The notes beneath the pieces are model-generated. The model was not told the DNA's origin. It did no database searches and worked only from the letters and a program-made list of their open reading frames with translations. The position numbers and the translations under genes were made by a program. A DNA stretch of 64,000 bases from Tubiluchus corallicola (Eukaryota; Animalia; Priapulida). Shown piece by piece: positions 4,663 to 63,830 of the stretch (positions are counted from its first letter, which is position 1; each line of letters opens with the position of its first letter). Where the stretch lies: NCBI GenBank assembly GCA_030141605.1, contig JAQGDQ010000296.1:124001-188000 (forward strand), written 5' to 3'.

Positions 4663-4961
4663 GTGTGAATTTTTATTTTGTACTAATTTTTATTGTTAAA
4701 CTTGAGTGATGGTCAAATTCTCACAAAATGTTGAAATTACATTGCATAAAAAGTTTGCTAATTAATGTTTAGGTGCATTTGAAATGTGAGAATGCAGTCG
4801 TTCAGATAACTATTCTTTTACTTATGGAAGTTATCGAAAAATTAATTTTGTATGTACCACTCAGGCTGTTTTAGTATTTTTTGTAAATTTGGTATTTTCA
4901 ATAACGAACTAAATGGCGTTGCTTTATTTTTACATGTTTGTTTTATGCATATGATCACTAG

Positions 4962-5150
4962 ATACGCCTGGTTATTTGTCAATGAAGCCTGGATCGGTTA
5001 GCAGTTCTGCCTCATACGTGCCTCATCATGCTAAAGAATTTCACCTTGAAAAAGTTCACAGTTATTTAGCACCTTCTGATGATGGGGTACAGCGTTCACG
5101 ATGTTATTCGTTAGGTGATAAAACTGCTGCCCTCCGTAAACAAATACAAG
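4962..5150 (+). CDS. IRS: IRS/chico-like adaptor, internal exon
   Basis: CTAG acceptor ends at 4961, GTAAGA donor at 5151; 189 nt; encodes GYLSMKP, FHLEKVHSY and RSRCYSLG. Confidence 0.85.
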
Positions 5151-7523
5151 GTAAGATAGCAAGTTTCTTTAAGTCATGCAATAGAACATTATATCAAGCA
5201 TGGTTTATTGCATATACACCGGTACTATGATCACACAAAGCACAAACATGATCATTCATACCTTTAACCCATATAATAGCTTTGAATACAGCTTACTTGG
5301 TTATTCCTATTGCTTTCATGATTATATTGATAAATTTTTGTGGTGTACTTCACCTTTGACCTCCGATTGCATATTAATTATAGTTAAACTTGAAACGTCA
5401 TTTCTGATACAGGGTCGAGATTTAAAGTTGTTAGGCATGCAGCATGTAAACTGGCGAACAATGATTTTGCTTACTGTGTTAAGACAATCTGTTTTAATTT
5501 ATGGGTCACTTATCAGCTGGCAGTTAGCTATAACAACTGGCACTTAGCAACACATGTCTGCAGTACAATCATTTTAATGACCACAGATAAAACAACACTG
5601 ATTTATTTTCTGATAAATATAAAATGTCAATGATTAAAGATAAAAGAACCATGCTTTCAGTTTCTGATAAATATGAAATTATTTCTGAAGTAAGTCATGG
5701 ATAAAACCCTTCGGTAGTTTATGTAGAAAAGTTGGCACCATGCTGTCAGTACTAGTCTGTTGAGATGTTGAACTGATTCATGAGTTTACTTTATGAACTT
5801 TATAAACTCATTTCAGTTACAGTGAGCAGGTGATGTTATAGTGCCAGAATGTAATCATTTTCTCACCTGACTGGTTTTTATTCCATTGCTCAACCAGATT
5901 TAGCTGGTTCGAGTTTTCTAGTTTAATCAAGTTATTACACAATGTAGTATACATGGAAAAGCAGTCAATAATAAAGTTTTGAGTGTGTTTGTAAATAAAT
6001 TTGCTTTATGTGTTGCTATACGCATTGTCAGTGCTTTTCTCACAATCTGTTACTGATTCGTGAAGCGATAAACACTTAAGTTACTTTGCTTCAAGACTTG
6101 TACAAGAGACAAGCACAAATTTGTGTAAATAAGTGATTGACTTTTTTGATCTCCCAACGACTTTACTGAATGTGCACATGTAAACGTACATTTAAAACTA
6201 AGTGTGTACCCACAGATTATTGCGAAGTATCTCTTATTGTAGTCACATAAAATATATTTCATTGAATTTGAATAATTAGTTTTATTTTGCATTTTTTGTT
6301 GTACTGCTTCAAAGTAGTTGACAGCATGTTCTTAAAGTACTTTACATCTTCTATGAACCACACACTGTATGAATATTTATGCAATGCAATTACTATTAGT
6401 TGCAATGGTTGACTATTTAGTACATATATACATATTAGCCAAGTATGCATATAGAATATCTCAGTTATAATGTACTTTTTTGCGTCCTTATCAGGTTTGC
6501 TGTAATGATTTTATACTGTAGTCATTATTTAGCAATAAATCCAGCCCATTTCGGTTCTTCATCCATTATCCATATGTCAGTAGTTTGAGTGTCTCAGGCT
6601 GAACTATTCTCATTTGATATCACCTGTAAGTGAAACTATCTTATTATTTCCACTGTATGCTCATATGAGGAAAAAGGTATATGCGAAGGTAAAAAAGGAT
6701 ATTGTAAGTTTGCTTAAACACCAGCGCCTTTATGCTTGCCAGTATGATTGTAAATATTTGGGTAATCCAATAAATGTCTGAAAGGTGTGAATTCCATGTA
6801 GCACTACCCTCATGGCTGTAATAATGAAGTTTTTTGTTTCTGGGTTTATGTCCATCCCTGAAAACTAAGAGAGGTATCGAAATGAACTGCTTTACCAATC
6901 AGAGGTCAAATTGTAAAGTTCTATGAACATGTACTTTGAGGAAGACTATGAAATGTAGTACAAATGACAAACTTGTTGGTAATACATCAGAATTGTTGTC
7001 AGTGGACTTATATTTTGTTTGCTATATGGTCATATACATGCAAAAATAGTGAAATGGCTTCTGTAAGGTTGCTTTAGTCCCTCACTTAAAGTGCTGGTTC
7101 GGCAGTGTTCATTTAACATTTGGTCTGGAGTGTTCTCGAATGAGGCTTTCCACATCTACTTTTAATGTTCTGTACCAACTTAAAAATTTTATGTGGACAG
7201 AATTTGAACCCACTAGCTAACGCATGAGATTTGTTCAGTAATATGGGCAGCTACTATCTAAATTATTTTAATCCCATTTAAAGTGGAGATACTTGTGTGG
7301 CACCTTAGTACTGTGTGTATACTATACAGTGTGTATAAATTGACCTTGCTTTTTAAATAGGTTGCAAGACATTTAGATCTCTACATGCACATAAGTAGTG
7401 ATCATACTTTTTAAGATGTTGCAAACATAAACTTTAATACAACTGCTTAATGCTGGTAGCTTAAATTAGTTCAAATGTCTTTTCATTGTAAGTCACCCAA
7501 ACTTTAACTTTGTTTTGTTTCAG

Positions 7524-7814
7524 CTGATGTCTTGAAAGAAGAAGAAGTCAGAAAAGGTCGAGCATATTCCATAGGGAGTAAACCTCAACCTTCTACTGCA
7601 AACAGTGTGAAAAAGTTTCTGGAGATTTCTCTTTCAGAAGATCGTAAATGTGCAAGTGCACCACATATCAATGAAGATGAAGTGGACGAGTTTGCTGCCA
7701 GTTCCACTGACGACTTAGTGAAGAAGCCCATACTGCATTCTTACAAAGGAGAAGACCTGGTAGAGTTGGATTTTGAAAAAGGTAGCCAAGAAAGTTTGGA
7801 CCAGGCTGCTAGTG
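7524..7814 (+). CDS. IRS: IRS/chico-like adaptor, internal exon
   Basis: Polypyrimidine-TTTCAG acceptor ends at 7523, GTGAGC donor at 7815; 291 nt; encodes RAYSIGSKP, resembling the RAYS[IV]GS motif of invertebrate IRS/Chico. Confidence 0.85.
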
Positions 7815-8137
7815 GTGAGCATGATAATGATTTTATGTGAGCTTATTTCTGTTAAAACTAGCATGGATTTTGCATGAAATCCGTGCAGCTTGAATCTCCA
7901 AGAAAACCTTATTGTTCGCTATTGCGCAAAAATATGTAACACCATATATTTTGTCTCTGAAGCTATTATTTATTTCACATTGTACATTTTCGCAACGTAA
8001 TTTGCCTTTGTGCTAAACTTCAACATTTGTAATTGTAACAAATTGTGTGTAATTCAGCTTGTGTTCGTCAGTGTTTTAATCAATTTTTTCAGTGTTTTTA
8101 TTACCATGCTTATAATTAACATATTTCACTTTTTCAG

Positions 8138-9579
8138 ATACATCACAAGACGTAGATTCTGGCACACCTGGTCGATCTCCAAAATGGGGTAGTCCTGATT
8201 CAAATCGAAGGCATAATGTAGGAATTAGATTACGCAAAGGTTCATGCAGTGAGAGTGAACCTGCTCGTAGCAGACAGAATTCACTAACAGAAAGAAGTAT
8301 TCGCAGTCGACAAAATTCTATTGGCGAAGTATGTATAAATCGGTCCCGCAGAAATTCCCTTGATAAGTACCCAAGAAGGGGTTCTACATCAAGGGTTGCA
8401 TCAGATAAAAAAGGAAAGGTTGGTACCTGTAATGAGGCTACAATTCAACCTCAGTCAAATGAACAAGGGGCCGCAGGTGAATACATTAACATCGATTATA
8501 ACAAAGATAAAAACTCAAGTAAGAAACCCATTCAGATTCAACACACTGATCGACATGATTATATTAATATATCTCCCATTAACCAGGCCAATAGTACAAG
8601 TAAAAAACCCACCGAAAGTTATAAAGGTGATGGAAGTTCATCAACTAACCTAGAAATGGGTGGAAAGAAAAATAGAGCCAGTAGTGCTGGTAAAGATGCT
8701 GCTGACTCCACAATTAAACATTCTGTTAGGGCTTCCAGTGAACCAAAAACTACTAGAGAAGATGATACCTATACAACACTTTCCTACAAACCTATTACTG
8801 CAGTCACCACTCTCCCTCAACAAACTGTCTGTAGCAAAACTCCACTGTTTATTGCCCCGATTTCTAAACTGGTGTCACAGTCAAGTCCGCCACAGAAAAA
8901 TGTTTCTATCACTAAGCCTTTAAGTAAAAAGAGTTCTGATGTTATAGCAAGCAGTGAAAAGGAAATGTCCCCAGACTATGCAGAAATGAAGGATTTGTCT
9001 TTGCGAAGTATTGGTGATCCATTTAATCTTGGAACTACCCCTGTAATAGATATCCCCGAAGAAGCAAATGAAAGCAGTGTTGTTGTGGAATCACTAGATC
9101 CCATAACAGCTGAACAGTTGCCTCCACCAGTTCATCGTCAAACCTCTGAACCAGCAAAAACTTCACCTAGTCAGAACCCTGTGAATTTAGATTCTACCAC
9201 AGTTGGTTTAAAGCTGAATCGTGCATGTAGTGCACCAACCGGCGTAGCAGTTTCACCACGGCAGCTCAACAGGCTTAGCCAAGAATATACTAGTCCATAT
9301 GAGAACCTCAACCTGACCGTAAACCGTACTTCACCACGGTCTTCAGTTTCTAGCGAGAAAGATTTGAATTATGCAACATTAGATTTAATGCCCACCGATG
9401 AATCGCCACGCAGAAATACCTCATCAAGTGACTTACGCAGAAGCAGGAATAGTTCAGCTACTAGTGGCAGTGATTCAGGCCCAGAGACATTACAATACAC
9501 TGAGATAGACTTTACGAAATCTGAGGGATTGCGACAAGTTGCTAGCACTTGTACGATGAGGGAAAACAGATTTCACTGA
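8138..9579 (+). CDS. IRS: IRS/chico-like adaptor, last coding exon
   Basis: TTTTCAG acceptor ends at 8137; frame stays open into the listed ORF 8656-9579 and ends at TGA; contains YINI twice and YENL (Grb2-type YxN), YAEM, and C-terminal LNYATLDL and LQYTEIDF (SHP2-type tail motifs of IRS/Gab adaptors). PH/PTB domains would lie upstream of the window. Confidence 0.88.
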
Positions 9580-10484
9580 TTATGATGTATTTCTGTCCTT
9601 TTATGTTGTGCCTGTAGTAAGATTATCCAGTGATAATAGTGTTGTGACGAATTCAGTTATGTATAGTACTGTGTGCATAAGTCCTTGAATGAAATACAGA
9701 AATTTATCAACTGTTTACCAGCATTTGTTGCATTTTGTGCAAGTCTGTTAATTTGTTGTATGACATTTTGACATATAAATTATAGCAAAATTAATACATT
9801 AAAACAGTGTGTAATATGTAACATTCAATATTATCTGTTGTTATTATGATTGTGTTAAGGGTAATTGTTTGACTTCCATCAGCACAAATGTAATAAATAT
9901 GTATATGTTGTACACTTTAATTCTGTAACACATACTTTAATAGAAAGTAGTAAGATATAGTCACAGATTGTAAAAAAGCTTTATATAAATTGTGCTTCAG
10001 TTTTGATTGTGGCTTTCTTTTATGTGATAATGTAGAGATTATAATATGCCATTATAGCGAATTTTTGTCTCTATGTTATATCGAAGTTTATATATGTACT
10101 TATGCTTGATTATGTTAGCAAGGTTTTATTACTCGCTATTAAATTTTCTTGTATGACTGTTGACAATGAAATCTCGTCTTAATATTTTTAAATGATTTTA
10201 ATGATATTACAGTTCAATACAATTTGACACGTTTTTTTAATAATTTTTGTGTAATGTCTGAATTCTGTTTTCTTGTCCAAAATTAAATGTCCAACATAAT
10301 TGCTCTTGAACAGCCAGCTTTACATGTTAATTAGAAACATGCTATTGTATTATTACAATGATAATCAAAGAACTGGTGTATTTATACATGGTATTATTTA
10401 TGAATATTGAATTATATTAACACTTTAGACTGTTTTGGCACTTATGATGTGATAGACGAATTACTCAAAAAAATCTAGAATGCC

Positions 10485-10490
10485 AATAAA
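10485..10490 (+). terminator. Candidate polyadenylation signal of the IRS-like gene
   Basis: AATAAA about 0.9 kb after the stop, in an AU-rich putative 3' UTR; other sites are possible. Confidence 0.35.
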
Positions 10491-12442
10491 AAATAGTTAA
10501 AATTCAGTATATAAAACATAGTCATTGGTGTTGGAAATTTTATCCAATGATTTATTACCACTTTGTGGAATTTGAATAGAAAAATACCAAACTTTTTGTA
10601 TATAAGTTACTGAGAATCTGTTTTATTAAGATTTGTGTTGTGCATAGCTTCTCTTTGCTCTGGAATTGCACTAAATGTTTGTTTGTTTGTTAAGAATGAA
10701 CGAGTCTATAGTTTTTGTAAATAGTTGAAGCAGCCTTGCTGACTGTGTGCAGTCTTTGTTTGAAGATTGCATACAGGGTCAGCCTATTAAATCAAAGGAC
10801 ATGGACTTGCAGGTGGAACATGCATTATCAATGGTACTGTATGATGGTCCCTGTATTTTAGTTATATTCTTTTCTTGGTTCAACCAAATGTGTTTCTGTC
10901 TTGAGATGCTGTTCAGAAATACCCGTTGAGGTTGTTAACCACTTAGTGGCACTTACCTAAGTGCTAGTTAGCTTAAATAACGAAGAAAAGAATTTGAACA
11001 TGTTTATTATAATTATTCTAAGTAATGTTGTAAGTATTTAATATTGTTGTTAACGCTTTCTGTACTGTAGTTCTACTTTTACTTGCTAGTTGCTATAGTT
11101 TCGTGTTTCATCCTCAGTCTGTTTTGCATTTTCTTAGTTTGTGTCAACGTGTGTGAAGGATTTTTATCAGTATTTCTAGTGGTAAAATTGTTATTAATTT
11201 TAATTCTTGTAAGTTTTTCCAAATTTGTAAAAAGCTGCTTTTTGTTAGATTTATGTAAGTTTCTCTATGTAATAAGGGATTATCAGTTGTGTGCGCAGAG
11301 TATTACAGATTAGTGTATATAATAGTAAGTTGTAACTGTATATAATTATTCTGAATTATTAGTGTTCATTTGCTTGTAATGAAATTGTGTCATTTAAATA
11401 ATATAATTAATGTTGTTCTTGATGACTACATGTTCGATTTTTTATTATAAAAAATGAGCCAGCAAATTGTTTCTAGTTTGGTTTATTTTTATATTAATTT
11501 GAATATAAACAGGTTGACATATAGTGCAGAAGTTTTAGCAATTTAATTTATGGCGTGCATTGTATCTTTGCACCAGCACAAAATCGCTCGGAGTTTTGAT
11601 CTTTTTGGATAGTCCTTTAAAACAGACATCATGGTCGGCCTTATAACGCGTAGGCCTTACTAGAATTTTTTTTGGTAGGCCTCAGATTCCTTGCTAAAGT
11701 CTGTAGAATTACAAAAATATGCCGTTATAGATTTTATATTTCTGTGACAGAATGGAAAGCAGTTAAAACGTGTTAAAACAACAACACTTTTTTTATTAAA
11801 ATGAACCTTGAACTGAGGTCGGCGTTCTAACTTGTAATATGCTGCGTTGGGCACAGTAAAAATGGCTCCAGAAAAAGGGCGCAATTTTTGAAAAATAGGG
11901 AAAAATGACACGTAAAATACGTGTTTAGGGTTAAGATTACTGTAAGGATATTTTTCCTTCTGTCAACTAAGTTATGCTCCAACGCTGATTGTTTGCTTGG
12001 TTACTTGTTTTTATGCTGTTATACGACAGTAAGTATATTACGTAAAACTACTTAAAGAGATCTTCACGAAACTTTGTAAAGAAAGTGGATAGGGACAGAA
12101 ATAATGCACTTTGAAGTATGCGAAAACTGCTAATTTTTTTAGGCCCGTCTGTTTTTCACAAGACGACCAAACACCGTGTACAAAAAATATGAAGCACTTC
12201 ATAGACGTCTCAGAGGTAGTGCCATAGCTTTAGAAAAAGGAGAGCTTGGCTACAAAACACGATAATTAATTCTTTTTTTATCTCCACCAGGACAAACAAC
12301 TACGAGTTAGTTCTGTAGGGTCCAGAAAATCTCGCTTGAAAAACTTCGTAACGCTGTCTATAATATTTGATTATACATGTACATGTATATAGTCTTGTAA
12401 GCTGACTTTGTATAGATACGTATATTTGTCATTCTGTCATCC

Positions 12443-13061
12443 CGGTGCGCCGTCAAAATGGTATAGGAAAAAATGGCGCAGTAAAAATGGCACAAATAGA
12501 AAAGTAGGTAAAAATGGAGCAGGAAAAAATGGCACGGTAAAATGACACAGGGAAAAATGGCAAGGTTAAAAATGACACAAATGAAAAAGTAGGAAAAATG
12601 GCACAATTTTATTTTGATGCAGTTGATTTCTATAATAAGATTAGAATGGGATCAGTAGGAAGCAGATCTTTGACAAAGCCGAACAATCCTAAACTTATTA
12701 GTTTGATTTTTCTGATTAAAAAAATTAAAACAAAGATAAACAAGCAAACATACCAAAATATGCCTATATTGATATTATGTATGAGTACGGACTAACAAAA
12801 TATTTGTTCATTAAATAGATGTTATAGTCAATACTGCACGAATGTTCCATATAGTGTTTATCTACCTTTTGAACAATTAATTTTCGCGAATGTAATAGGC
12901 TGACAAATATATACCTACCATTTTTACCCGTGCCATTTTACCTACTTTTCCATTTGTGTCATTTTTACCTGTGCCATTTTTACATACTTTTTCATTTGTG
13001 CTATGTTTTCTTGTGCCATTTTTACCGTGCCATTTTTTCCTGTGCCATTTTTACCTACATC
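12443..13061. mobile_element. Foldback/MITE-like element with inverted arms made of ~15-bp tandem units
   Basis: Left arm 12443-12606 repeats GGTAAAAATGGCACA-like units; right arm 12914-13061 repeats the reverse complement TGTGCCATTTTTACC; AT-rich core; no clear TSD. Confidence 0.7.
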
Positions 13062-13069
13062 TATTATAC

Positions 13070-13545
13070 TGTTACGGGGGAGGGGGGTAAATGCCATTTA
13101 TTTTCTACCTCCTTTCTACATTGTGGTGGTTCGACCCATTACGAAGCCATTGCATAGCAGCTATAAGTAGCTGTGATGGAATGGCCTCGTCGGTTCAGCG
13201 GGCTGAGGGGCAGGCGCGTTTTCCGTCTCACCACCTATTCTGTAATGACAGCCGGCATGGAGCAAGATGGGGTAGACATCTGGCATGTTACTTAATTCAG
13301 TAATTTTACTCTTACTGCTGTTTTTTACGTTTTCTTCTCAACTATGCGACAACCTGCGTATCAGCACCATTCGCTCTTCATTACATTGGTGGCAAGTCCG
13401 GGGGGGGGCAGTCCTAAGCTCCCCTAGCGGATTCCAACTTGCAACCTTAGATCGGCAGCAGAACCGCACCGAACCGCCGCTATAACATGGAACCGCCGGA
13501 ACCACTGTGCAGTACAACGGATTTCTTTCATCGTCAACGGTAGCT
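13070..13545 (+). mobile_element. Possible truncated LTR-element 5' end
   Basis: Starts TGTTAC; ATTACA ending at 13385 is followed by TGGTGGCAAGTCCGGG (PBS-like; loosely similar to the tRNA-Pro PBS); short MEPPEPL frame at 13487; no partner LTR or TSD seen. Confidence 0.3.
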
Positions 13546-13994
13546 GTGATTTGTGTGGGTTCACAAAACGTCTTAGTTGGTTTTTTAAAAACCGGAGCTT
13601 TCAGAGTCCTCATTAGCAGGTTACGTGCCTGTTTCACAGTGGTCGCGTGAATTACGTACGAGAATACTGTTTCTGTATGCTGCTGTATGACTATTTCCTG
13701 TGGCCTCGTGGAGGAATGTGTTTACCTACGAGGATTCAGTTCTAGTATGCTGTGAATAGATGTCGATTTTAAAGTGTATGGTACAAAGTGTAGTCTGTAC
13801 TTGCTGTAGCAGCATCTGGACTGTCGTTTTTAAGTTAGTGATTGAAACAGGTTACGTGCTTTAGGTCATAGAGAAGCTAAAGAGAATCACTTAGATTTTA
13901 CGAGAAGCAGTAAATGTTAGATACTAAACTAACTATAAGTATCTTCACTTACTGCTCCTTTTTTCATTAAGACGTTTCATAAAGGGGATGTCCC

Positions 13995-20084: not shown

Positions 20085-21404
20085 CTATAAATGTGTGGCA
20101 TTGGGATTTTTCTCCGTAGTGGACAGAGCCTTGCCGTTTTTCAGGTCCGCCAGCAACATGGCATTATGTTCATATTCCGGCATGAGTTTATTGTGACCAG
20201 TGGTGGTCACGTGAGTAGTTTCACCGTCTTCGTCGTCCTCGGAGTCACCCGCTTGGTTTCTAATATTTTTCAACACATTACTGCGCGATCCTCTAGCAGG
20301 AAATACGCTGGCTTCAGCTGCCAGGCCTTCACTCGTCTTTGCACACTTGAACGCCTTGATAAAGCTCTTGCGAAAGTTGTCGCTAAGGAAGGCATAGAGG
20401 ATTGGATTGATGGCAGAATTTGCATAAGCTAAAGCGTATACAAACAACGATACCCAGACTCTAACCTCGTCTGGTTCATTCCCACCGCGCCCTAAAGTTA
20501 TAACCATTTGTAAGCACCAGTATGGTAACCAGCAACAGATGTACACCGTTATAACAGTCAGTACCATTTTAGTTACTTTTCTGTGTGATTTCTTCTTTTC
20601 CTTAGACCTCTGAGTTTTTGGTCCCAATGTTTTTAGTCTTCGCAAAACAAGACAGTAGAAAACTAAAGTCAGCGATACAGGTATACCGAACCCTAACAGA
20701 AACGAGTACCATATGAAAGCAACTTCTGCTTTTATAAGTTGTCCTCCTGGCCATAAGACTGTGCAGGTCGTCATTTTTACCCCGGGCGCTACATCGTATT
20801 CATGTGCTCGTGCATACATTGCAACGGGAATCATCACCAGTATACTAATAGTCCATGTGAAAGCACACACCAATTTAGCATGGAGTGGTGTACGCCATTT
20901 AACTGACCGCACTGGCTGACAGACAGCAAGGTATCTGTCACTACTCATCACTAACAGAAATAAACTACTTGTAAACTGATTAACGACTGCCATTATCATG
21001 TACACTTTGCACATTACCGAACCGAACAGCCATTGGTTCATCAAATACGTGGTTATCAAAAACGGTATGCTCCACAAAAACATTTCGTCGGCCATTGCCA
21101 AATTCATGATGTACAGATTTGTTACTGTTTTCATTTTAGCAAAGCGTAACACGACATATACGACTAAACCATTACCTACCAAGCCCACTACACATATGAT
21201 TCCAAACAGGAGATTTAGAAGATACTTTGAGATTATTGCTGTCAGTGACCCATCGTGCATGGTTGGATCTGCCGTCATGTTGGTCTCATTGAAAAACGTC
21301 ATGTTCTGGACAGCCGCGTCAACAATATCCAACAAATGAAAATCTGTCTTCTTCAGTAAATTTCCTTCGGATTGTTTCATTAACTTCTCTGTGTTACCAT
21401 CCAT
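20085..21404 (-). CDS. AstC-R: Somatostatin/allatostatin-C receptor family class A GPCR (single coding exon, ~439 aa from first ATG)
   Basis: Seven hydrophobic segments; GNGLVVYVVLRFAKMKTVTNLYIMNLAMADE, SDRYLAVC, KKKSHRKVTKMVLTVITVYICCWLPYW and NSAINPILYAFLSDNFRKSF are SSTR/AstC-R signature motifs; N-terminal N-glycosylation sequons NMT, NET, NMT. The ORF track starts at a GTG (21488); the first in-frame ATG is at 21404. Confidence 0.93.
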   Translation of the reverse strand: MDGNTEKLMKQSEGNLLKKTDFHLLDIVDAAVQNMTFFNETNMTADPTMHDGSLTAIISKYLLNLLFGIICVVGLVGNGLVVYVVLRFAKMKTVTNLYIMNLAMADEMFLWSIPFLITTYLMNQWLFGSVMCKVYMIMAVVNQFTSSLFLLVMSSDRYLAVCQPVRSVKWRTPLHAKLVCAFTWTISILVMIPVAMYARAHEYDVAPGVKMTTCTVLWPGGQLIKAEVAFIWYSFLLGFGIPVSLTLVFYCLVLRRLKTLGPKTQRSKEKKKSHRKVTKMVLTVITVYICCWLPYWCLQMVITLGRGGNEPDEVRVWVSLFVYALAYANSAINPILYAFLSDNFRKSFIKAFKCAKTSEGLAAEASVFPARGSRSNVLKNIRNQAGDSEDDEDGETTHVTTTGHNKLMPEYEHNAMLLADLKNGKALSTTEKNPNATHL

Positions 21405-24281
21405 TCCTTGCAGATCGCATTCAGTAATTTCCAAGCAATCGCTCTGGTGGTCTTGTGTTTGTTTTAGGGTCAAACAAAAGTACCACAAATTGTCGCGGGT
21501 TACTGTCTTTATATGTTAGTAACTAAGCTGTAGATAGTCGCTTCAAATAACACAATTTTTATTCTATTAAGGTGATTTTTAATTCACTATCAGCCGAAAA
21601 ATGTTTTGTAGCCTTCTGTATAACAATTTATACAGCTATGGCGAAATCTGACTTACATTTATCTGGATGCTTTAATGATTGCGCCTCCGTGAACAGCTGC
21701 CAAAGGCAGAGCTCTTATAGATGTCGTTCATCTATGTAGGTTTTGTGATACGGAATTCAATAGAAATTGGATAAATATTTGAATACCATATGACATGATC
21801 GTGTCTCAAGACTTAGTGGCTTTCATCCAGAAAAGTTAACACTTTATGTACTTAAGCACGGGACATAATAGACAGCATTTGAAAGCGTACAGATGGTGGT
21901 GATTGTTCTGTGTAACCTCATACAAGAGAATTTCACTCAAGTGATGGTTCTCATTGTGCTTTAAATAATCCGTTCACTCTCTCGGCTGAGTCGAATTGAA
22001 CCCGGGAGAGTATAATCACTGTCTAGCCCAATTCTGTTGAATGTCAAGTTAATCTTCCACATCCGGTAATGAAGGAATATCATGTTTCTAGTAAATATTA
22101 GACTCTCAGCTCGCATCACCTATAACAAAAACAACATTATTTTTACGACTATTAATTATGAAACCTGATTCATGATCAAACGAACGTTTTTTGCGTCTAA
22201 TGTACAATAGTCAGTTGCAAGAAACATGGTTGTCTTTTTTCTCAGAGGCGCCTGTTTGGGCTCATTCGCCCTTTCTACTGAAATTTGCGTAGAAAATGCT
22301 GAAAATTACTTCTGCGATGGTGACGTAATCTGAGCAAAACTGAGTTTAAAAACAGTCAAACAGACGACTGAATGAATAGATGAGCGAACAAACGAACTAA
22401 TGAAAAAGCGAATAAAAGCACAAGTCAAATTAAATTAATAGTCCAAAAATCTCAAAAAATAATCAAATAAATAATCAGACAAGTAGGCGGATAGGTACGT
22501 AAACACAGTAAGCAAACACGCATGCTACATTCTCAAAAGGGTAAGACACGTGACAGTGTCAATATAACAGTTAGAACACGCCTTTTATAATTTATAGGTT
22601 ACTTCTTGAAACTTCGAGATTAGTTAACGCGTAATTAGAATGCTAAAAATTACCCACGACCAGTAATTTCAAGAAGCAAAGCTAGGCAAAATTACTTAAC
22701 TCTGCACTTGCTGTTGCACAACAAATGTCGCACATTACGAGAATATCGGTGACTGTCACTGACAAATATAATTGACCTTAATAATTCGATAGTACTGACA
22801 AATTGTGCCACAGCGCCATCACAATGAACAGTTTCAACAATTATATTGTTGTTAGGCTTGCCTCATTCGCTGTAGCTGCTAGAAATCTATACACATCTGC
22901 ATAATTATAAATTATTCAACTCTTTATATTATTCATCAACTGCACAGAGGCGATATTTGTGTTAGAGTTATGTCTTTTACTGAAAAAAGTCCCAATGTTT
23001 GAATTCCAAATTTTGTTAAACCATCATTTCTTTTGCCCACCATTAACTTTTCTATCTGTTCGTGAAATAATCTTTTGTGGGTCGCTATTTTTTATCAGTT
23101 CACAACCAAACTGTAAAATCCATGGTTTACTGCCGGCAGTATAAACTCACAAATTGTTAAAATTGAGAACAGTGAGATTCAAGAACAATTACTGCTTTTA
23201 AGCTTTTATAATAATCAAGTTCCTTGGGCTTTGCTGTGCCTCTGCATTTTTGTAATATTGTTATCTTATGCAATTTGAGCGTATGGTGTGTTTTACATTT
23301 CTTACCTAATTCTGTATTCAACTATTTTATTGCAAATTTCAAATACACTCTATTGACCTGCCATAGGCCTAAAGGACGAACTAAAAATGCTGTTTTTTAA
23401 CATTGTGTCTATACAGAAATGTCGATATAAAATAGTGCCGGTTAAAATATACAATATTATATGAATAAACCCTAATTTGAGGTCAATAATGGGTTTATGC
23501 GGATGTATTGTTTTTTTACGCACCACTAGAAATTCCAAATCAACATTAATAAGAAACAATAAACTATTTTGATGTCCGGATTAATGGCATAACTCATGAC
23601 TGTGTTAAGGCTTTTCAAAAAATGCAATCCAGAAAATGAAAGTTATACATAAAAATAGGAAAACGCGAAAAAATAACAAGACCAATTTAATTATTTTATT
23701 TAAGAAATGTAGTTATGTAATTATGAGCCGTTAAGTTTACGATTTCTGATTTTCAAACTGTTAGATCAGTTTAAATGAGCTGCCGATTAATTAATTAATC
23801 ATTACTTGTCAAATTACTTTTATCATTAAACATAACAAGTTGTTTTTCAGTAGTACACTTTAGCTTACTATACTAGTAGTATACTATAGCTATTACTGAG
23901 TAACAAGACTAACACAGGGTTGTTATTTTATTATGGTTGAAAGAAAGAGAAACACATTTAATGATATTCGCGTGTTTGGCCAAGAGGCAGCTGAGCTTTC
24001 GCTTGTTGAAAGATATAGTCCACCTAACGAGCATTTAAGCGTGCCATGAGCTAAACTTGGTGCAAAATTAATGACTAAGGGCGGAAATGACCTCAAGGAA
24101 AGATTTACGTTAGCCATTAGAAATGGCGACTAACACACCGATAAGTACAGGCAGTTGTACAGCTCAAAATTTTTAATCTTTAATGAAAGTTGTGTGAAAG
24201 CTTTACCAAATTTTACAAACGTGCAGATCTGTACAAGCAGCTACATCATGTCACACACTCTCCCCTGCGTACTTTCTCCTT

Positions 24282-41900: not shown

Positions 41901-42990
41901 ATTGCTTAAATGGCTCGCTAGTGATTTGCTAATCTCAAAGAGGCGGAATTAACGAGAGAATAAAGATGATTAAATGTGTTTAAACTTCGTGAAAGTTGTT
42001 TGAAAATATGGAGTTATTGCAATTGAACGTGAGAGTGAAATAAATTGAGTTGTCTTTCTTGATAATCCTGCAGTCTGATCCATTTTAACTAAGTCAAAGG
42101 AGCTTCATGAAACCCTACGGAAGACTTAAATATTGAATTTACAAAAAACTTTGCAATGAATAATTAATTATCATTTTAGCAACATTCTTGTGGCTCTCTG
42201 GTTAGCTAAAGACACTTTTCACTTTCAGTTAGAGCTACTATAATAAGCAAAATGCAAAAAAGCCAATGCAAACTGTGGTATATTGTTAGAATTTTGCTTC
42301 ATCATCGGTCAATCTACTCTAACTTTACAGTCAGTAAACATATTATATCAATTTGGGGAGGGGACAGGTCATTTTGGCTTGAGCGTTTGAGCCCCAGACA
42401 CTTGGGCGCCGGCCCACTTGGGCCCCAGATATTTGGGCGCCAGTATAATGTTTGTGCAGCGCTACAAAACGCGATATCTATAGCTGGCTTATTAAGTGAA
42501 TCCTCTTTGACTGTTACAAGCATAGTTACAGTATTAATTTTTTAAATTTACCTTAAGTTTTTTCAACAAATAAATAATTACTTTCGTGAATAGGATCATG
42601 TAATTGATATAAGAAATAACTGAAATACTCTTCATGTGTAAAAAAAACCCTGTCCCTGAACCTTTCACAAGAGATGCAGTAAAGAAACTTAATTGTGAAA
42701 GTGATAATAACGCATTAAACATTTTTTCTCATTAATTCACCTGCTTTCTTTCGCATAGGCAGCTATAATCAACGTGACTTAAAGGATTCTAAGCGCTCAA
42801 TGAATAATTGCACGTTAACTAGGTTATCCTCGGCTTGCTTGGAACAATCTGGAAATGCCAGGGTGGCGTCTTCTGTCTGCGAATTTTACAACTAAATGAA
42901 GAACTATATCTCACTGTCCACGTTACTGACAGGCTTTGTAACCGGACGCCATTGCATTTTCTCATAACAATGGCGTTAATCACATACTAT

Positions 42991-43342
42991 TGTAACGGAT
43001 CCGGGTCCTTTTCAGGCGCCGATCCGTCTCCTCAGAATGTATCGAGCGGCATACAAGTTATGAAAGTATTACAGCAGACGAGAAAAGTAAAAAGAGTACG
43101 AATGCAAAATAAATTAAACTTTATTGCACAACCGGTAACTCCAAAAGAATGACATGTGAACAGACTTTGTATAAAAAAATCAGCAAACCTACAGCAATCA
43201 CCTTTACAGACAGAAAGGCCAGGTTGGAATCGTCAAATTACGGCATGCATTCTGTTTTATACAGGTACATTTGCATTACTGGGCTTCTCGACTATACCCA
43301 TTACTAACATTATGGGGTTAGTCAAAACCCGTCTTCGTAACA
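42991..43342 (-). repeat. 3' LTR
   Basis: TGTAAC...GTAACA on +; sense-strand AATAAA at 43125-43120; adjacent to the PPT. Confidence 0.95.
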
Positions 43343-43355
43343 CTACCCCCTCCTC
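43343..43355 (-). promoter_or_regulatory. Polypurine tract
   Basis: Sense GAGGAGGGGGTAG immediately before the 3' LTR. Confidence 0.9.
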
Positions 43356-44248
43356 AATTTCCATTTGTCCACAAATGGGTTACAGCAAATGCAAATGCAA
43401 TTAAATTTTACTCTAGTTGAACCCAACAAAAGTCATTCAAAGTTGAGCAAATCAGTTTAACAAAATAATCAAAATTGTAAACAGCACTAGTACAAATATG
43501 TAAAATCCCGGCTTTAGCAAATCTATCCAGGTTAACAGATCAATGATCCACTTCTTGTGAGTGCAGTGTATCGATATCTATCGAGACTGTCCCAAAAACA
43601 ATACAGTCAGTCTTTAAACAGAAACCAGTCTTTGCACATCACGCTATCGGCAAAACAGGCCTTGAAACAAAAAAGCATTCTACTAGTTACTTCCGAGGCA
43701 CTGAGACAACCTCTATGATGTGGTACATTGTGAACAGTCTATAGAAGTTCTCCTGGGGCGTCGGTAGGGATTCGAACCATCTGTCTGCCCGGTGAAATAA
43801 AGTAGTTGCGATACTTGCGAAGGTGTAGGGTACTCCAGCCATGTGCTACAACGGTATTGTACTCCTAGCCATAAACCATGTCTTTGACGGTACTCCATAA
43901 TAGACTCGTGTCCGTCATAATAGACTCGTGTAGCAATCGAAGTTTCGACCTGTCTTCCCTGAGTGAACGAAATAGGCATACTGACAAGCTTACTGCAACA
44001 GACTCGGCACATAAAGAGGAATAAAGACGAAACAAATTTACAAACAAGGTACTGCTGTACAACAACAACAGCAAAGTAGAGAAAAACGATTAATCTTTTT
44101 AAACTGCTTCAACGTTCTGGCTTCGCAAAAGCTACCGAAAACCGGTTCAACTTTGACCAGTGACGTACAGTTAAAAAGACGAGCATCAAGTGTTCACAAC
44201 TGCATAATCTTAGCTAGCTGAACACAACAGAGCCCCATGTTGAAAAGC

Positions 44249-44491
44249 GTGTTCTGGCATCCTAGCCATTACGGAACACTAAACTACCATTTAAAAACAG
44301 TGTTCTGGCAACCTAGCCATTACGGAACACTAAACTACCATTTAAAAACAGTGTTCTGGCATCCTAGCCATTACGGAACACTAAACTACCATTTAAAAAC
44401 AGTGTTCTGGCATCCTAGCCATTACGGAACACTAAACTACCATTTAAAAACAGTGTTCTGGCATCCTAGCCATTACGGAACACTAAACTAC
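44249..44491. repeat. 51-bp tandem array (~4.75 copies) inside the LTR element
   Basis: GTGTTCTGGCATCCTAGCCATTACGGAACACTAAACTACCATTTAAAAACA at 44249, 44300, 44351, 44402 and 44453 (partial); one substitution in copy 2. Confidence 0.97.
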
Positions 44492-44789
44492 GGTGACTCG
44501 CTATACATGCAAAGTCACAAAATGGCTGTACGTCTCCTATTCCTAAATACAGGCTAATATCGCCTCATTGGGAACTCGATAAAAACATAGAACTGTTTAA
44601 GCTAAGGCCGATGCTGCCTGTCGCATAAAGGCCGTTCAATTGCCTTTCAACATAAAAGGTAAAAACACGAAACTGTCTACAAAAACACAAAAAAACACGC
44701 CGAGTAGTACAGACAAGCTGTCTGCCTAAAGCAAAATGCAGCACTCACCAAACCCAATAATGTCGATCCATTCCAGGCGGCAATTTCGG

Positions 44790-44807
44790 ATCCCACTTCT
44801 GACACCA
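44790..44807 (-). promoter_or_regulatory. Primer-binding site complementary to the tRNA-Leu(CAA)-type 3' end
   Basis: Sense TGGTGTCAGAAGTGGGAT begins 1 nt after the 5' LTR, a known Gypsy-type PBS. Confidence 0.9.
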
Positions 44808-44808
44808 G

Positions 44809-45160
44809 TGTAACGGATCCGGGTCCTTTTCAGGCGCCGATCCGTCTCCTCAGAATGTATCGAGCGGCATACAAGTTATGAAAGTATTACAGCAGACGAG
44901 AAAAGTAAAAAGAGTACGAATGCAAAATAAATTAAACTTTATTGCACAACCGGTAACTCCAAAAGAATGACATGTGAACAGACTTTGTATAAAAAAATCA
45001 GCAAACCTACAGCAATCACCTTTACAGACAGAAAGGCCAGGTTGGAATCGTCAAATTACGGCATGCATTCTGTTTTATACAGGTACATTTGCATTACTGG
45101 GCTTCTCGACTATACCCATTACTAACATTATGGGGTTAGTCAAAACCCGTCTTCGTAACA
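44809..45160 (-). repeat. 5' LTR
   Basis: Identical by eye to 42991-43342; sense TATA-like GTATAAAA at 45080-45073. Confidence 0.95.
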
Positions 45161-45370
45161 CTATTAATCAGCCTTGAACAGTACCGTAAGCCAAAACCTC
45201 AGAGCGACTCCTGGCGCCGTCGAGCGCACTTCATTAGTGAATTATAGTCTGTTCTATATGTGCTTCACACTCATCTTACCCATGTTCTTACATTTATAAT
45301 AAAAGGTTTCTCTAAAACCATACTGACTAGTTTCGGGTTGTTATTCGTCGTTGTTATACTACACATAGTC

Positions 45371-46620
45371 TAATACTGAAGGTGGAGAAAGTGCAGAAAG
45401 GCAATTAACTGGTTTTAATAGTGTTATTAAACATAACAGTTACGAAAATAATCAATCATTAAAAAGTTAATAAACAAAAATAAAAAATAGGTACAATTTC
45501 AAGTTTTGTTGGTGCCCAAATGTCTCGTGCCCAAGTGTCCACGTGCCCAAATGTTCCAGGTCCAAATGGCCGTGCCCAAATGTCACGTACTCCAATTTGG
45601 GACATTTGCGCGCGAACTCGATCACGCAGAATACATTACATTTCTGTTTTGCCCTGCAAATCACACTACAAATGATTATAATGCTACTAACCTACCTAAT
45701 ATAGTACAAACTAGACTTATGTGGGAATCCTCGTCCACTGCCATACTCGCTAATTACCATAATTATAAGATTTAAAACATCAAAAGGTTTTTATAAGAAA
45801 AGAAATAATTATTTTCATGAGTACGGTCGTGTAAAATTGGATACATAGTTTAACTCACCGCGTGTAAATACACTGCTTCTGAATGCATAATATTATCATG
45901 CAAAAAAGTGCATTTCGCACGAGATTCAGCAAAAATGGCTGAAGCAGTTATTGTTGATCTTCATATTGATAAGTATACTCATTTAATTGGTTTACTACTT
46001 GATCTAGCTAGTCGTTTTCGGCTTAACACCTAGTTATAAGCAACTAATGGAATAAATAACGCATTCTAGGTTTCTTCTAAAACACACCAAGCATTCAATG
46101 AATGTATGTAGTATTGTGATATAATACTAGTTGTATTGCTGCACTAGTTGTACTGACACTAAATTTTGGTGTGAACAGATTTCTTTGTAACGCACATTTC
46201 TGTTATTTGCTGTATTTGTGATGCACTAGATAATTTTTTGAAATAAAATGCTATCATATTTTAATAAAATGCTGATGTAAACTTTTCTTCTTCTTTTTTG
46301 CTCGTTTCAAAAGCTACACATAAAATACTGAATTAAGGTGAAAAACCAGAGAGTGCAGCTAATTGACTGGCTTTAATTGTTTTATCACATATTACTACAT
46401 ATGTCTAATTTAGTGAAGCCATGGTTCTTAAAAAATATTGCGAGAGTTAGGAAGTTGTAGTAAATCACTAAAAATTTAATAAACAAAAATAAAAAATAGG
46501 TACAAAATTAAATTCTATTGATGCCCAAATGTCTCGTGCCCAAGTGTCCCATGCCCAAATGTCTCGTGCCCAAGTGTCCCATGCCCAATTGTTTCTTGCC
46601 CAAATGTTACGTGCCAATAA
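45371..46620 (+). repeat. Two direct copies of a foldback/MITE arm with 15-bp GTGCCCAAATGTCTC units
   Basis: TAATAAACAAAAATAAAAAATAGGTACAA...TGCCCAAATGTCTCGTGCCCAAGTGTCC occurs at ~45468-45593 and ~46477-46617, each preceded by similar upstream sequence. Confidence 0.75.
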
Positions 46621-53870: not shown

Positions 53871-54776
53871 TCACTTTTTAATTTCATTTTTAGACCTAGT
53901 AGGAGAGCCATGAGGTGACGGTGATATCATTACGACCATAGTGGTTCTGTACGGAGTTGGCGAGTCGGCTCTTACATCATTTGTTGAACCAGCTGCAGGG
54001 AGATTAGCCACACTGGCTTGTAGAGTGTTAGCAAAATCATTGTATTCATTTGATCGGAAAACATCAGCATGTCCGAAATTTACTTGAGAGCCAATATTCA
54101 AATGAGAACCATCTTGGAATTGTGATCGTTCAGGAGATTGAAATTTGGCATTGGGATTTAACACGGGACGATGTTGAGGTCCAGCATCGTAATATAAATA
54201 TCCATCATTTGCACCTGTGAGTTTTGCCACTTCAGCTTCTACAGATGATGCATCACCCGCCTCATCTGTAATACCCTCTTGAGAGCGTCGCCGGTACGGT
54301 ATAGGTGGTACTGGTGGGTATTTCTGTATTGGTTTCAGTTTTGGTGCATGATCTGATACATAACCTGACAGCTCACCAGGCAACGTGGCCAGCACTTCTC
54401 TAAAAGCGCTCTGTACAGATATGGTTTCCTTGCTGAGGTCACTGAGAGCTGAAGATGCAGTCACAAATGTCTTGTTTATCAGCGTCCTGCTGGCATCTTG
54501 GGCGTCACATTCCTGGCTTAGGCTCTCTATATAGTTATCCAGTGGTTCTTTCTGTTTGATTAGCTGTCGTTCATATTCCAACCATAACTGTTCTTGATCT
54601 TGTAAACAAATGTCTAAGTTGGTAGCTGTAAGCGGCGAGACTTTCTGATAAATTGTGGACATCCAATGTGACAAATCTCTGTGGGATTTTCGTACGGCAT
54701 GAACACTTTTTACATATGTCTTAAATGCCTCGCGAAACCGCTCGCCGTTATTGATATGATTTCTAATTTGTTCCAT
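53871..54776 (-). CDS. Intronless divergent amphiphysin/BIN-like protein with partial BAR domain and Pro-rich low-complexity tail (~301 aa)
   Basis: GERFREAFKTYVKSVHAVRKSHRDLSHWMSTIY and QEQLWLEYERQLIKQKEPLDNYIESL align by eye with BIN1/amphiphysin BAR helices ([57 protein letters not shown]); 900-nt open frame in AT-rich DNA; ATG at 54776. Confidence 0.65.
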   Translation of the reverse strand: MEQIRNHINNGERFREAFKTYVKSVHAVRKSHRDLSHWMSTIYQKVSPLTATNLDICLQDQEQLWLEYERQLIKQKEPLDNYIESLSQECDAQDASRTLINKTFVTASSALSDLSKETISVQSAFREVLATLPGELSGYVSDHAPKLKPIQKYPPVPPIPYRRRSQEGITDEAGDASSVEAEVAKLTGANDGYLYYDAGPQHRPVLNPNAKFQSPERSQFQDGSHLNIGSQVNFGHADVFRSNEYNDFANTLQASVANLPAAGSTNDVRADSPTPYRTTMVVMISPSPHGSPTRSKNEIKK

Positions 54777-55865
54777 AACATAACATTGCACTTAACAACT
54801 CTATAATTTTGACGATATTAAATTTGTGACCACAGTAAACTGAGCAGAGAGATCATTTTTAAAAAAGTTTCCTACTGTTATGTCGGCCGTGCAAAACTGA
54901 TATCTATGACAACCGCTTTGAATGCGTATTACGAAGTGATGCGCTCTAACATAGCAACAACTAAGAAATAATAACAACATTATTGGCCATAGTGCCGAAC
55001 CTTAGAAGTGCAAGTATTTTTAAAAGTTCAGAAAACACATATTCTAGTACAACTTCTCAACCAATTGCTCATACAATTCAAAAGTGGTCCACACTTTATG
55101 CAAGAAATTATACTGCACCGTTTGGACCATTACCATTTGGTAATTACATGCACTTTTATTCTCACAGTTATTCTTAATAATTTTGAAAATTGGAGTCCGG
55201 CAATGTTATCAGTTTGGCAGTGCAGTCAAATTATGTTAATGCTGCTATGTTTTCTGAAATGTTGTATAGGCTGCATATATGCTTTTAGGTTGTATAGGCT
55301 ATGTATTAAAATATAAACAGGGCACTAAATGACAAATTTATAAATCCTTTCTGAATTTTCACTGTCATTTCAAACTTTAAAATATGATACAGCAGAACAT
55401 GTTCAGGCGTAAGATCCAGTAGGGTAAATGGCTACAAAGCAAACGTATATACAGTATTTTAAAATCGGAAAATATTTTACATTATTAACGCTATAACTTA
55501 TATCAAAAGGAGAAATTTTTAGCTAAATAGCTAAATGTACGCTAGTTGATTACTGAATAACTGTTTGCATTTTCTAGTTTTACGGCTCACTGTAAACCAA
55601 AATAACCCCCCTTCTGTGGTTTCGCGAAGCCTGCCCGTGACTGCCCCCTTTTTATTGGGATTGCATTGCCCCCGGGAAAACAAAATGACAAAATGCATTT
55701 ACTTAAGATATCTGAAATTGTTTGCTTTTGTTTGCTGGTAAAGGTCTATAAATATTTAAATATCATTCATAAATAAATCCATACGCCCATGTAACTTGAA
55801 TTATTTTTGTACTTTTCGGGTTCTTGTGTTTGTAATGTGTGTTGTAGGTAATACCTCCTCACCGC

Positions 55866-62189: not shown

Positions 62190-63830
62190 CTAAGAAAATA
62201 TGGAGGAAGGTAAACAGGAAAGGAAACTTAAAAGCAAATGACATTGCTGAGGCATTGCAAAACGATTTGTAAAAAAATTACTGTTGACGTAAATGTCTTA
62301 GCACAGTCATTTGAAAGTAAATCCACTCTCCCTATCACAAACTCGATTTATAGTGATATACGATCAAATGTTTATATCCTAGTTTTAGATGACGAAATTT
62401 CACAGAATGAGGTACTTGAGACTGCTAAGTTGTTAAAAGGAAACAAAAACTCTAGTGATGGCTGGTGTGCAGGACTGATAAATACGCCTAACGTCTTGCA
62501 AATGATGATGCCTGTATTATTGCTTTTACTAAACATGACTTTTTTGTGTGCGGCTTATCCTGTAGCTTGATGTGGAGCTGTTATAATAGCATTGTTTAAA
62601 AAAAGGTGATGTAAACGATGCCGGTAATTACCGCGGAATTTCATTAGTGAGGCTTTTAGCTAAAATGTATGATATTATTCTGTGTGAAAGATTTAAATTG
62701 TTGCTTAAACCGTGTTATGAGCAATCTGTTTTCAACCCGGTCGCAGTTATGCGGAACATGTATTAACTTTAAGAATCTTAATTACACTGGCTAAACGTGC
62801 TAAAATTGCTTGCTTTATTTGTTGCTTTTCTTGATTTTAGCGCAGCATTCGCTCGAGTTGCATGGCGGATATTGTTTATGAAACTTGCTAAACTTGGAAC
62901 TGGTGCAACGTTCTTAAATGCATTAATTGCTATATATACCTATACGGAAAACATTGTCTTTTTTGATAATATAGCATCAGACCCATTTGTGTCAAATGCT
63001 GGAATTCGACAGGGCTCCCCAAGCTCCGCATTGTTGTTTATCGCATACATAAATGACCCGATTGTTTTATTTCGTAATACGTTTGCTCCTGAGTATATTA
63101 TTCATATGATTCATATCTAAATTCATGCCGTATATTCATACCACTATGTATAAGAAAAAATGTCTTATTTGCCTGTGTAACCAGCACATTATTGCATAAC
63201 TGTGAGACATGGGGGAGAGAACCCTGTAATCTGCTATGAACAGAGCATATGAAAATCGTAAAAAGTATGGTTGGGGTCAGATGACCGGTCACTAATGATA
63301 TAGTACTGTTTGATTGTTTGGTGTCCTCATTAGATTTCTTAATTGAACAAAGACAAATTAATTTTTGGAGTAGTATCATGAAAGGGAATAGTGAAGATAT
63401 GCTAAAAGGATTAATCTTAGATTGCCAATCTCAGAACAACTGTAAATATGTAACCTATTATAATTATATTTAATGAATTGTATACGTTTACCAGCTTCTC
63501 GAGGAAAGTCAAAATACGTGTACTACGTAAATATTAATCCAGATTTTGTGTAAGGGTTTTACGATGAAAGAAAATTGCTTACTGATGCTTATAAAAACAT
63601 TGTACGTTTGCGATTACTATCTCACGATTTAGCTATCGAAAAAAGTCGTTGGCAACATAAACCTAGAGAAGATAAATTATGTGAGTTTTTGTAAACCTAT
63701 GCTACTAATTGAGGATAAAAAACATTTCATTTTGAATTGTAAAAGAACAACATTAGCACGTAAATACGTAAATTATGTGCTGTTGAGATTTGTAACTTTC
63801 GAGATTTAATCGGTAATGTTGATGTTCATG
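62190..63830 (+). pseudogene. Decayed non-LTR (LINE) reverse transcriptase ORF2 3' part (RTE-X/Daphne/CR1-L2-like)
   Basis: KKGDVNDAGNYRGISL, VAFLDFSAAF, GIRQGSPSSALLFIAYIND, ACVTSTLLHNCETW and C-terminal RLLSHDLAIEKSRWQHKPREDKLC...EDKKHFILNC; frameshifts and stops. Confidence 0.9.

What the first reader, a model, noticed from the sequence alone, without database searches (positions are those of the whole stretch)
42991..45160. Young, intact non-autonomous LTR retroelement with structured cargo instead of gag/pol
Seen: 352-bp LTRs identical by eye, CTAT TSD, tRNA-Leu PBS (complementarity extends to ~23 nt with one mismatch), PPT, LTR TATA and AATAAA, and an interior with no gag/pol ORF. Established: identical LTRs imply recent insertion, and TRIM/LARD elements use the Gag/RT/IN of an autonomous partner. 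Inference: this is an active parasite family of a Leu-primed Gypsy element. Its interior combines a hairpin array, splice signals, a small ORF and a tRNA-like motif, a layout I do not recognise from described families. Best candidate in the window for an undescribed system.
Basis: partly seen in the sequence, partly recalled or inferred. Interest (0 to 1): 0.8.

Follow-up and report, generated by a model that had tools for sequence, protein, structure and literature searches.

The report
Young gene-less LTR retrotransposon, priapulid worm
This is a real, recently inserted, repeated 2.2-kb jumping element with no genes of its own in a worm that is likely a priapulid; it likely borrows the enzymes of a Gypsy retrotransposon, which is a known kind of parasite, and only a 25-base tRNA-end fragment inside it stays unexplained.

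Summary
The element is real. It lies on the minus strand (42991-45160) with identical 352-nt LTRs, a CTAT target duplication, an 18/18 tRNA-Leu(CAA) PBS, a PPT and no gag/pol. The host is likely a priapulid. Public contigs show a repeated family in two studies, and one contig carries the exact empty site (skip 2174 = element plus one target copy), so the insertion is likely polymorphic. Gypsy elements in marine metagenomes share the LTR end and PBS; the actual partner was not found. The 'structured cargo' is mostly not supported. The small ORF has no relatives and is near chance length, a donor motif also occurs on the other strand, and the interior folds no better than background. The 51-bp hairpin array is real, but interior arrays are known in such elements. 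A 25-nt tRNA 3' end with CCA in register is beyond chance and unexplained; it is likely a captured scar. Leu-primed, 4-bp-target non-coding LTR elements are described in ants (PbTRIM) and tapeworms (ta-TRIM). Verdict: new member of a known kind. The scan's earlier notes held no look-alike DNA.

The parts
42987..42990 (.). target site duplication CTAT, left copy
   Evidence: removing the element plus one copy gives the empty site seen
42991..43342 (-). 3' LTR, 352 nt, AATAAA at 43120-43125
   Evidence: motif placed by the 1818-nt LTR offset
43346..43355 (-). polypurine tract, 3 nt before the 3' LTR
43713..44012 (-). 99-codon ATG frame (131 codons stop to stop from 44108); likely not a gene
   Evidence: one-base insertion at 43947 in a common variant
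43754..43778 (-). 25-nt tRNA-like 3' end (B box, acceptor-side strand, CCA in register), without the 5' half
   Evidence: no tRNA gene called
44249..44491 (-). tandem array, 51 bp x 4.8, each unit a predicted hairpin
44677..44748 (-). possible 72-nt leader intron (donor 44748, nearest acceptor-like site 44677); prediction only
   Evidence: a donor match of the same kind also lies on the + strand
44785..44807 (-). primer binding site for tRNA-Leu(CAA): 18/18 at 44790-44807, mismatch at 44789, four more matches
44809..45160 (-). 5' LTR, 352 nt; TATA-like box 45073-45079; U5 inverted repeat 44813-44845
45161..45164 (.). target site duplication CTAT, right copy

Best explanation
This is a recently inserted, repeated, gene-less LTR retrotransposon (a 2.2-kb 'long TRIM') in a host that is likely a priapulid, likely copied and integrated by the proteins of an autonomous tRNA-Leu-primed Gypsy element. 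Shown: the cis parts (LTRs, PBS, PPT, 4-bp target duplication), absence of gag/pol, many near-identical interior copies, and an exact empty site. Inferred steps: Pol II transcription from the 5' LTR; packaging by a partner's Gag through the leader next to the PBS; minus-strand priming by tRNA-Leu(CAA) and plus-strand priming at the PPT; integration with a 4-bp stagger. The interior is most likely loosely constrained spacer. The 51-bp array is likely a slippage expansion that may add packaging stem-loops, the ORF is likely incidental, and the tRNA 3' end is likely a scar left when reverse transcriptase jumped onto a packaged tRNA; its orientation fits such a jump during minus-strand synthesis.
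For: LTRs identical, CTAT both sides. PBS 18/18 to tRNA-Leu(CAA). No coding relic. Run X1: six listed interior contigs with 0 differences at depth 1674-2689 against 187.5 for the unique flank; run X4 (another study): seven listed element contigs at 23-155 against 5.2-8.4 for flank contigs. X1 contig joins 42985 to 45160, skip 2174 = 2170 + 4, depth 123. The same 24-nt LTR end plus PBS occurs in 16 metagenome loci; of 5 loci scanned, 3 encode RT and 2 show the Gypsy order RT-RNase H-integrase. Contigs in X1, X4 and X5 share the leader next to the PBS at lower identity and run on unlike on both sides (records 4, 14, 19). Precedent: PbTRIM and ta-TRIM; animal Helenus families with 4-bp targets are tied to Gypsy.
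Against: No autonomous partner was seen in this host: no genome is held, and contigs show only up to 30-40 unlike letters. Gypsy dependence rests on shared ends and target length only. The empty-site contig has 30 letters on its short side, the tool marks 'between: not known', and the target is itself a repeat, so it could be a near-identical empty paralogue. Contig depth is not a copy number. The tRNA end (0 of 5000 shuffles) and the 4-nt PBS extension (0 of 16 other loci with this PBS) are not explained by simple decay; the template-switch origin is untested.
Confidence: 0.82

Rival explanations
1. The interior is selected functional cargo: the tRNA 3' end acts as a tRNA mimic or B-box (Pol III / TFIIIC) signal and the hairpin array as an amplified packaging signal, giving the parasite an edge over its helper.
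For: B box plus CCA in exact tRNA register, 0 of 5000 shuffles; 22 of 27 viral loci with the degenerate motif are 3' ends of called tRNAs. The motif lies in family contigs of X1 and X4 with 0-1 differences. The array unit folds with z -2.45.
Against: No 5' half and no cloverleaf (z +1.78). T runs every 51 nt upstream would stop a Pol III genomic transcript (termination at T runs is recalled knowledge). 3 of 47 interior windows fold at z below -2 against 7 of 120 background windows, and the array folds as well or better on the antisense strand. Copies are too alike for conservation to mean anything.
Confidence: 0.1
2. The element carries a small spliced accessory gene (donor 44748 joined to a downstream acceptor, 99-131 codon ORF), like MaLR- or Bhikhari-type elements with one ORF (recalled, not checked here).
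For: One consensus donor 42 nt after the PBS, three acceptor-like sites, and an ATG frame of 99 codons reached by 17 of 500 shuffles.
Against: 0 hits among 1.84 billion representatives, none in two word-index searches, no Pfam family. Neither of the two downstream acceptors found is in frame with the ORF. A one-base insertion at 43947 is carried at depth 1918 of 5401 in X1 and 149 of 545 in X4 (75 indel rows hidden, so a compensating change is not excluded). A variant replacing 43953-44013 removes the ATG.
Confidence: 0.05
3. It is a plain internal-deletion derivative of an autonomous Gypsy element still present in the genome, the interior being that element's 5' and 3' untranslated regions joined together.
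For: The LTR is several times deeper than the interior (75,726 at 43197 against 4,201-13,788 in interior bins of X1), so other interiors or solo LTRs share it. Related leaders exist.
Against: No gag or pol relic in any frame. At 97% likeness only 1% (X1) and 3% (X4) of laid records run on into unlike sequence, and no listed loose end marks a long parent (40 rows hidden).
Confidence: 0.25
4. Assembly artefact or single-copy chance structure.
For: Identical LTRs can arise from consensus collapse; no listed contig spans the whole element.
Against: Target duplication, exact empty site, repeated interior in two studies, and correctly placed PBS and PPT.
Confidence: 0.02

Closest known systems
PbTRIM of the ant Pogonomyrmex barbatus (PMC3532108, passages)
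   Same: non-coding interior, tRNA-Leu PBS, PPT, 4-bp AT-rich target duplication, young copies, solo LTRs
   Different: 480-781 bp with 152-184 bp LTRs; this element is 2170 bp with 352-bp LTRs, an interior array and a tRNA end. Sequence homology not tested.
ta-TRIM of taeniid tapeworms (PMC4558846, passages)
   Same: TG...CA LTRs, tRNA-Leu PBS, PPT three bases from the 3' LTR, mostly 4-bp targets, interior without long ORF proposed to hold a packaging signal, partner proposed from shared ends and PBS
   Different: about 1 kb, 198-bp LTRs, 9-nt PBS four bases from the LTR; here an 18-nt PBS one base from the LTR. Sequence homology not tested.
Helenus / Ajax (TRIMp3) (PMC10886601, parts 1-4 of 6)
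   Same: non-autonomous LTR element with small-RNA-derived sequence; animal Helenus has 4-bp targets and Gypsy-type PBS, some Leu; Ajax is Leu-primed
   Different: their tRNA or 5S part lies in the LTR with promoter boxes; here the LTR has no A or B box and has TATA and AATAAA, and the tRNA part is a 25-nt 3' end in the interior
1.5-4 kb non-autonomous LTR families ('long TRIMs') of sugar beet (PMC13570524, passages)
   Same: size class between TRIM and LARD; 10 of 115 families hold internal satellite-like arrays; solo LTRs and reshuffled LTR/interior modules common
   Different: plant elements with 5-bp targets; no homology implied
Autonomous Gypsy elements L004 and L012 from metagenome contigs
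   Same: identical 24-nt LTR end plus PBS; L004 has a similar PPT spacing
   Different: they encode gag-pol, come from other organisms and match the element only around the PBS; they show the class of helper, not the helper

Membership tests
non-autonomous LTR retrotransposon (broad TRIM sense) | two LTRs with TG...CA ends | tested here: met
non-autonomous LTR retrotransposon (broad TRIM sense) | PBS after the 5' LTR and PPT before the 3' LTR | tested here: met
non-autonomous LTR retrotransposon (broad TRIM sense) | 4-6 bp target duplication, single at the empty site | tested here: met
non-autonomous LTR retrotransposon (broad TRIM sense) | no gag, protease, RT or integrase | tested here: met
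non-autonomous LTR retrotransposon (broad TRIM sense) | dispersed copies with distinct targets | tested here: inconclusive
   repeated by depth, and one other flank behind an LTR end in X4; full-length copies could not be counted
Gypsy-dependent element | autonomous Gypsy in the same genome sharing ends, PBS and target length | not testable with these tools
   no genome held; shared ends seen only in other organisms
TRIM in the strict sense | under 1 kb (1.5 kb at most), terminal repeats of 100-250 bp | tested here: not met
   2170 bp, 352-bp LTRs; definitions
LARD | longer than 4 kb | tested here: not met
TR-GAG | retains a gag ORF | tested here: not met
Helenus / Ajax | tRNA- or 5S-derived promoter inside the LTR | tested here: not met
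   no A/B box in the LTR; no Rfam or ARAGORN hit
retrozyme | hammerhead ribozyme in the LTR | tested here: not met
   no ribozyme family at E up to 5; a lone core-like heptamer at 44853
Troyka | CG...CG ends and 3-bp target | tested here: not met
PbTRIM, ta-TRIM or any Repbase/Dfam family | sequence identity to the family | not testable with these tools
   no repeat library or family sequence on hand

The most novel reading that the evidence does not exclude
A Gypsy parasite that carries a tRNA mimic in its interior: the captured tRNA 3' end, the extended PBS and the multiplied hairpins together let its RNA outcompete the helper for Gag and reverse transcriptase, a design not among the TRIM, Cassandra, Helenus or retrozyme types seen in the searches made here.
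Probability: 0.08. Interest if true: 0.65.

Novelty: new member of a known kind. Interest (0 to 1): 0.3.

Why it matters
As it stands: a likely still-moving non-autonomous LTR family in a phylum for which the search here listed none (11 of 12 papers listed; Repbase not searchable). It is useful for repeat annotation, as an insertion marker, and as a warning that such elements yield false small ORFs. If the interior tRNA end or the array proved functional, it would give a testable case of how a gene-less element wins packaging from its helper, which the ta-TRIM and Helenus papers leave open.

Tried and rejected
No genome is held, so no copy count or partner search was possible. No other copy of the element in the window. 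ARAGORN found 0 genes in the window; Rfam gave one chance match, E 2.8. The ORF had no relatives, nor did a second frame read with X at its stops; the ESM Atlas gave no answer. The exact 22-nt tRNA-like motif is absent from prokaryote genomes, and the degenerate motif ends tRNAs of many isotypes, so no isotype was assigned. The Gmr1 clade (integrase before RT; recalled) was considered as helper, but the two complete loci scanned have integrase last. Hammerhead, Helenus, Troyka, LARD and TR-GAG were rejected (membership table). No RNA holder was listed; the short pieces in run X6 are no evidence on expression. X4 shows no joint across the site and no cover at 43998-44345 at 97%; a 96% contig covers part of it at 85%; this says nothing about absence. 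The scan's earlier notes gave no look-alike stretch and one unrelated fungal element. Literature searches for an interior tRNA fragment or B box in such elements listed no matching paper by title and abstract start (listings only).

Full report
Observation. The sequence at 42991-45160 holds two 352-nt repeats with 0 differences, TG...CA ends and CTAT on both outer sides. The element reads on the minus strand: one base after the 5' LTR comes an 18-nt PBS, and a 10-purine tract lies three bases before the 3' LTR. The LTR has one TATA-like box and one AATAAA, and no A or B box. The 1466-nt interior has no Pfam family in 6 of 6 frames read with X at stops, and the gag-pol frames of three autonomous elements find nothing in the window. 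Zero differences in 352 nt bound LTR divergence below 0.85% (95%), that is under 0.4-2.1 million years for assumed rates of 1e-8 to 2e-9 per site and year (rates assumed, not measured).

Host. A GPCR of the window has its best named hits in Priapulus caudatus (59-62% identity, 504-513 bits); after the top four hits the score falls to 394 bits. The host is therefore likely a priapulid other than that species. No genome is held.

Family and polymorphism. Four runs from two studies hold the stretch, and no RNA holder is listed. I laid 4 of 6 listed runs at 85% and 2 of 6 at 97%. X1 may be the source of the window; X4 is from another study. In X1, unique flank contigs have depth 187.5-188.2, six listed interior contigs with 0 differences have 1674-2689, interior bins sum to 4,201-13,788 at 85%, and the LTR reaches 75,726. 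In X4, flank contigs have 5.2-8.4 and the seven listed element contigs 23-155. Depth is not a copy number, but the interior is plainly repeated and the LTR much more so. One X1 contig joins 42985 to 45160, skipping 2174 bases, exactly the element plus one target copy, at depth 123. This is the empty site, most simply a second allele in the same sample. The target lies inside another repeat (15 contigs with loose ends at 42937, depth about 7,300 right of the element), so a near-identical empty paralogue is not excluded. Diverged copies of that repeat also join across the site, one with the length expected for a single target copy (table 5c). Most LTR copies in X1 differ from the window at 43197 and at the matching place 45015, so both LTRs of this copy share a minority type, as expected after one round of reverse transcription. 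Tables of both calls were cut (274 and 99 rows hidden in tables 3 and 5; 505 pieces).

Helper. The 24-nt LTR end plus PBS occurs in 16 metagenome loci. I scanned 8 ORFs from 5 of them: 3 loci encode RT, and L004 and L012 show RT, RNase H, integrase in Gypsy order. One viral-collection contig with the PBS has pol and an env-like ORF (env-likeness by inspection). Their DNA matches the element at E below 0.1 only around the PBS. In the host's runs, contigs of X1, X4 and X5 share 180-245 nt of the leader at lower identity and continue unlike into a different LTR, two of them also into a different interior (records 4, 14, 19). These are relatives, possibly the helper, but the tool shows too few letters to tell. 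Gypsy dependence is thus an inference from ends, PBS and 4-bp target, the same reasoning used for ta-TRIM and Helenus.

Cargo, item by item. ORF: 131 codons stop to stop (36 of 500 shuffles reach this), 99 from ATG (17 of 500); 0 hits among 1.84 billion representatives, none, and none for the neighbouring frame. A one-base insertion at 43947 is common (1918 of 5401 in X1, 149 of 545 in X4), and a variant replacing 43953-44013 removes the ATG. Splice signals: one donor consensus on each strand; of three acceptor-like sites, the two near the ORF are out of frame with it, and the nearest would make a 72-nt leader intron. A fourth AG near 43994, missed by my filter, would be in frame by my hand count; this is untested. 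Folding: 3 of 47 interior windows and 6 of 71 element windows have z below -2 on the sense strand, against 7 of 120 background windows. The array (51 bp x 4.8) folds into one hairpin per unit (z -2.45 for one unit, -3.32 for two) but as well or better on the antisense strand. In sugar beet, 10 of 115 non-autonomous families hold such interior arrays (PMC13570524, passages). tRNA-like motif: B box followed by CCA at the exact tRNA spacing; 0 of 5000 shuffles, 28 of 5000 for the B box alone (the pattern was chosen after seeing the sequence). Of 27 viral loci with the degenerate motif, 22 are 3' ends of called tRNAs of many isotypes. The 5' half is missing and the region does not fold (z +1.78). 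It is a real-looking tRNA 3' end, not a tRNA gene. The four extra PBS matches occur in 0 of 16 other loci with this PBS, so they too are somewhat unusual.

Mechanism. Shown: cis signals, lack of genes, repetition, empty site. Inferred from the known LTR cycle: Pol II transcript from the 5' LTR, packaging by a helper's Gag, tRNA-Leu(CAA) priming, PPT priming, integration with a 4-bp stagger. For the tRNA end I favour a template jump of reverse transcriptase onto the CCA end of a packaged tRNA during minus-strand synthesis, which gives tRNA sense on the element's sense strand as seen; a SINE relic or a selected B box remain possible. The array is likely a slippage expansion near the leader that may add packaging stem-loops.

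Comparison. PbTRIM (Leu PBS, 4-bp target, non-coding, young; PMC3532108, passages) and ta-TRIM (Leu PBS, PPT three bases from the LTR, mostly 4-bp targets; PMC4558846, passages) work the same way but are half the size or less. Helenus and Ajax carry their small-RNA part in the LTR (PMC10886601, parts 1-4 of 6), which is not met here. biv-TRIM lacks a typical PBS (PMC6934838, passages). Troyka, known from Priapulida, has CG ends and 3-bp targets (PMC12440569, passages). Retrozymes were seen only as a search listing. By size the element falls in the unnamed 1.5-4 kb range, described as a continuum. I did not open supplements; the Helenus and Troyka family lists there, and Repbase/Dfam, could already hold this family. 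Searches for priapulid LTR elements and for interior tRNA fragments (listings only) showed no description of it.

Verdict. A real, young, likely polymorphic family; a new member of a known kind; interest 0.3. The cargo claim rests on one unexplained 25-nt motif, a 4-nt PBS extension and a modest hairpin array; I give 0.08 to a functional tRNA-mimic design.

Noticed in passing
window 44799-44803 (runs X4, X1): A PBS variant with two substitutions and one inserted base has depth 114.7 of 558 in X4 and a matching loose end in X1: a repeated subfamily with an altered primer site.
   Followed up: no
window 43533/43534: Copies in X1 and X4 carry about 50 extra bases here that the window copy lacks (loose ends on both sides).
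   Followed up: partly
window 44813-44845 and 42995-43027: The U5 end is an inverted repeat; 8 contigs in X1 and contigs in X4 keep the stem arms with a shorter loop, a hint of a conserved LTR-end structure.
   Followed up: partly
window 42937-42990 and 45161-45330: The insertion target is an older dispersed repeat with diverged empty copies; its class was not determined.
   Followed up: partly
window 42301-42450, 45454-45600, 46463-46615 and 12509-13072: Short 15/30-bp tandem arrays; 45454-45583 and 46463-46592 are 84% alike; probably a non-autonomous DNA or rolling-circle element family.
   Followed up: no
window 20085-21515 (-): Intronless somatostatin / allatostatin-C type receptor, best named hits Priapulus caudatus.
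   Followed up: partly
window 62232-63120 (+): Broken reverse transcriptase fragment (Pfam RVT_1, E 2e-8), LINE-like by inspection.
   Followed up: partly
window 4086-9579 (+) and 53871-54791 (-): Exons of host genes: the first with repeated tyrosine-methionine motifs like an insulin receptor substrate, the second BAR/amphiphysin-like; both by inspection only, Pfam gave no firm hit.
   Followed up: no
L001 1-8383: Viral-collection contig of a Gypsy-type element with pol, a 609-codon env-like ORF and the same tRNA-Leu PBS.
   Followed up: partly
run X5: A run with the same species label shares the LTR (about 90% alike, depth 150) and a related leader but almost none of the interior or unique flank.
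   Followed up: no
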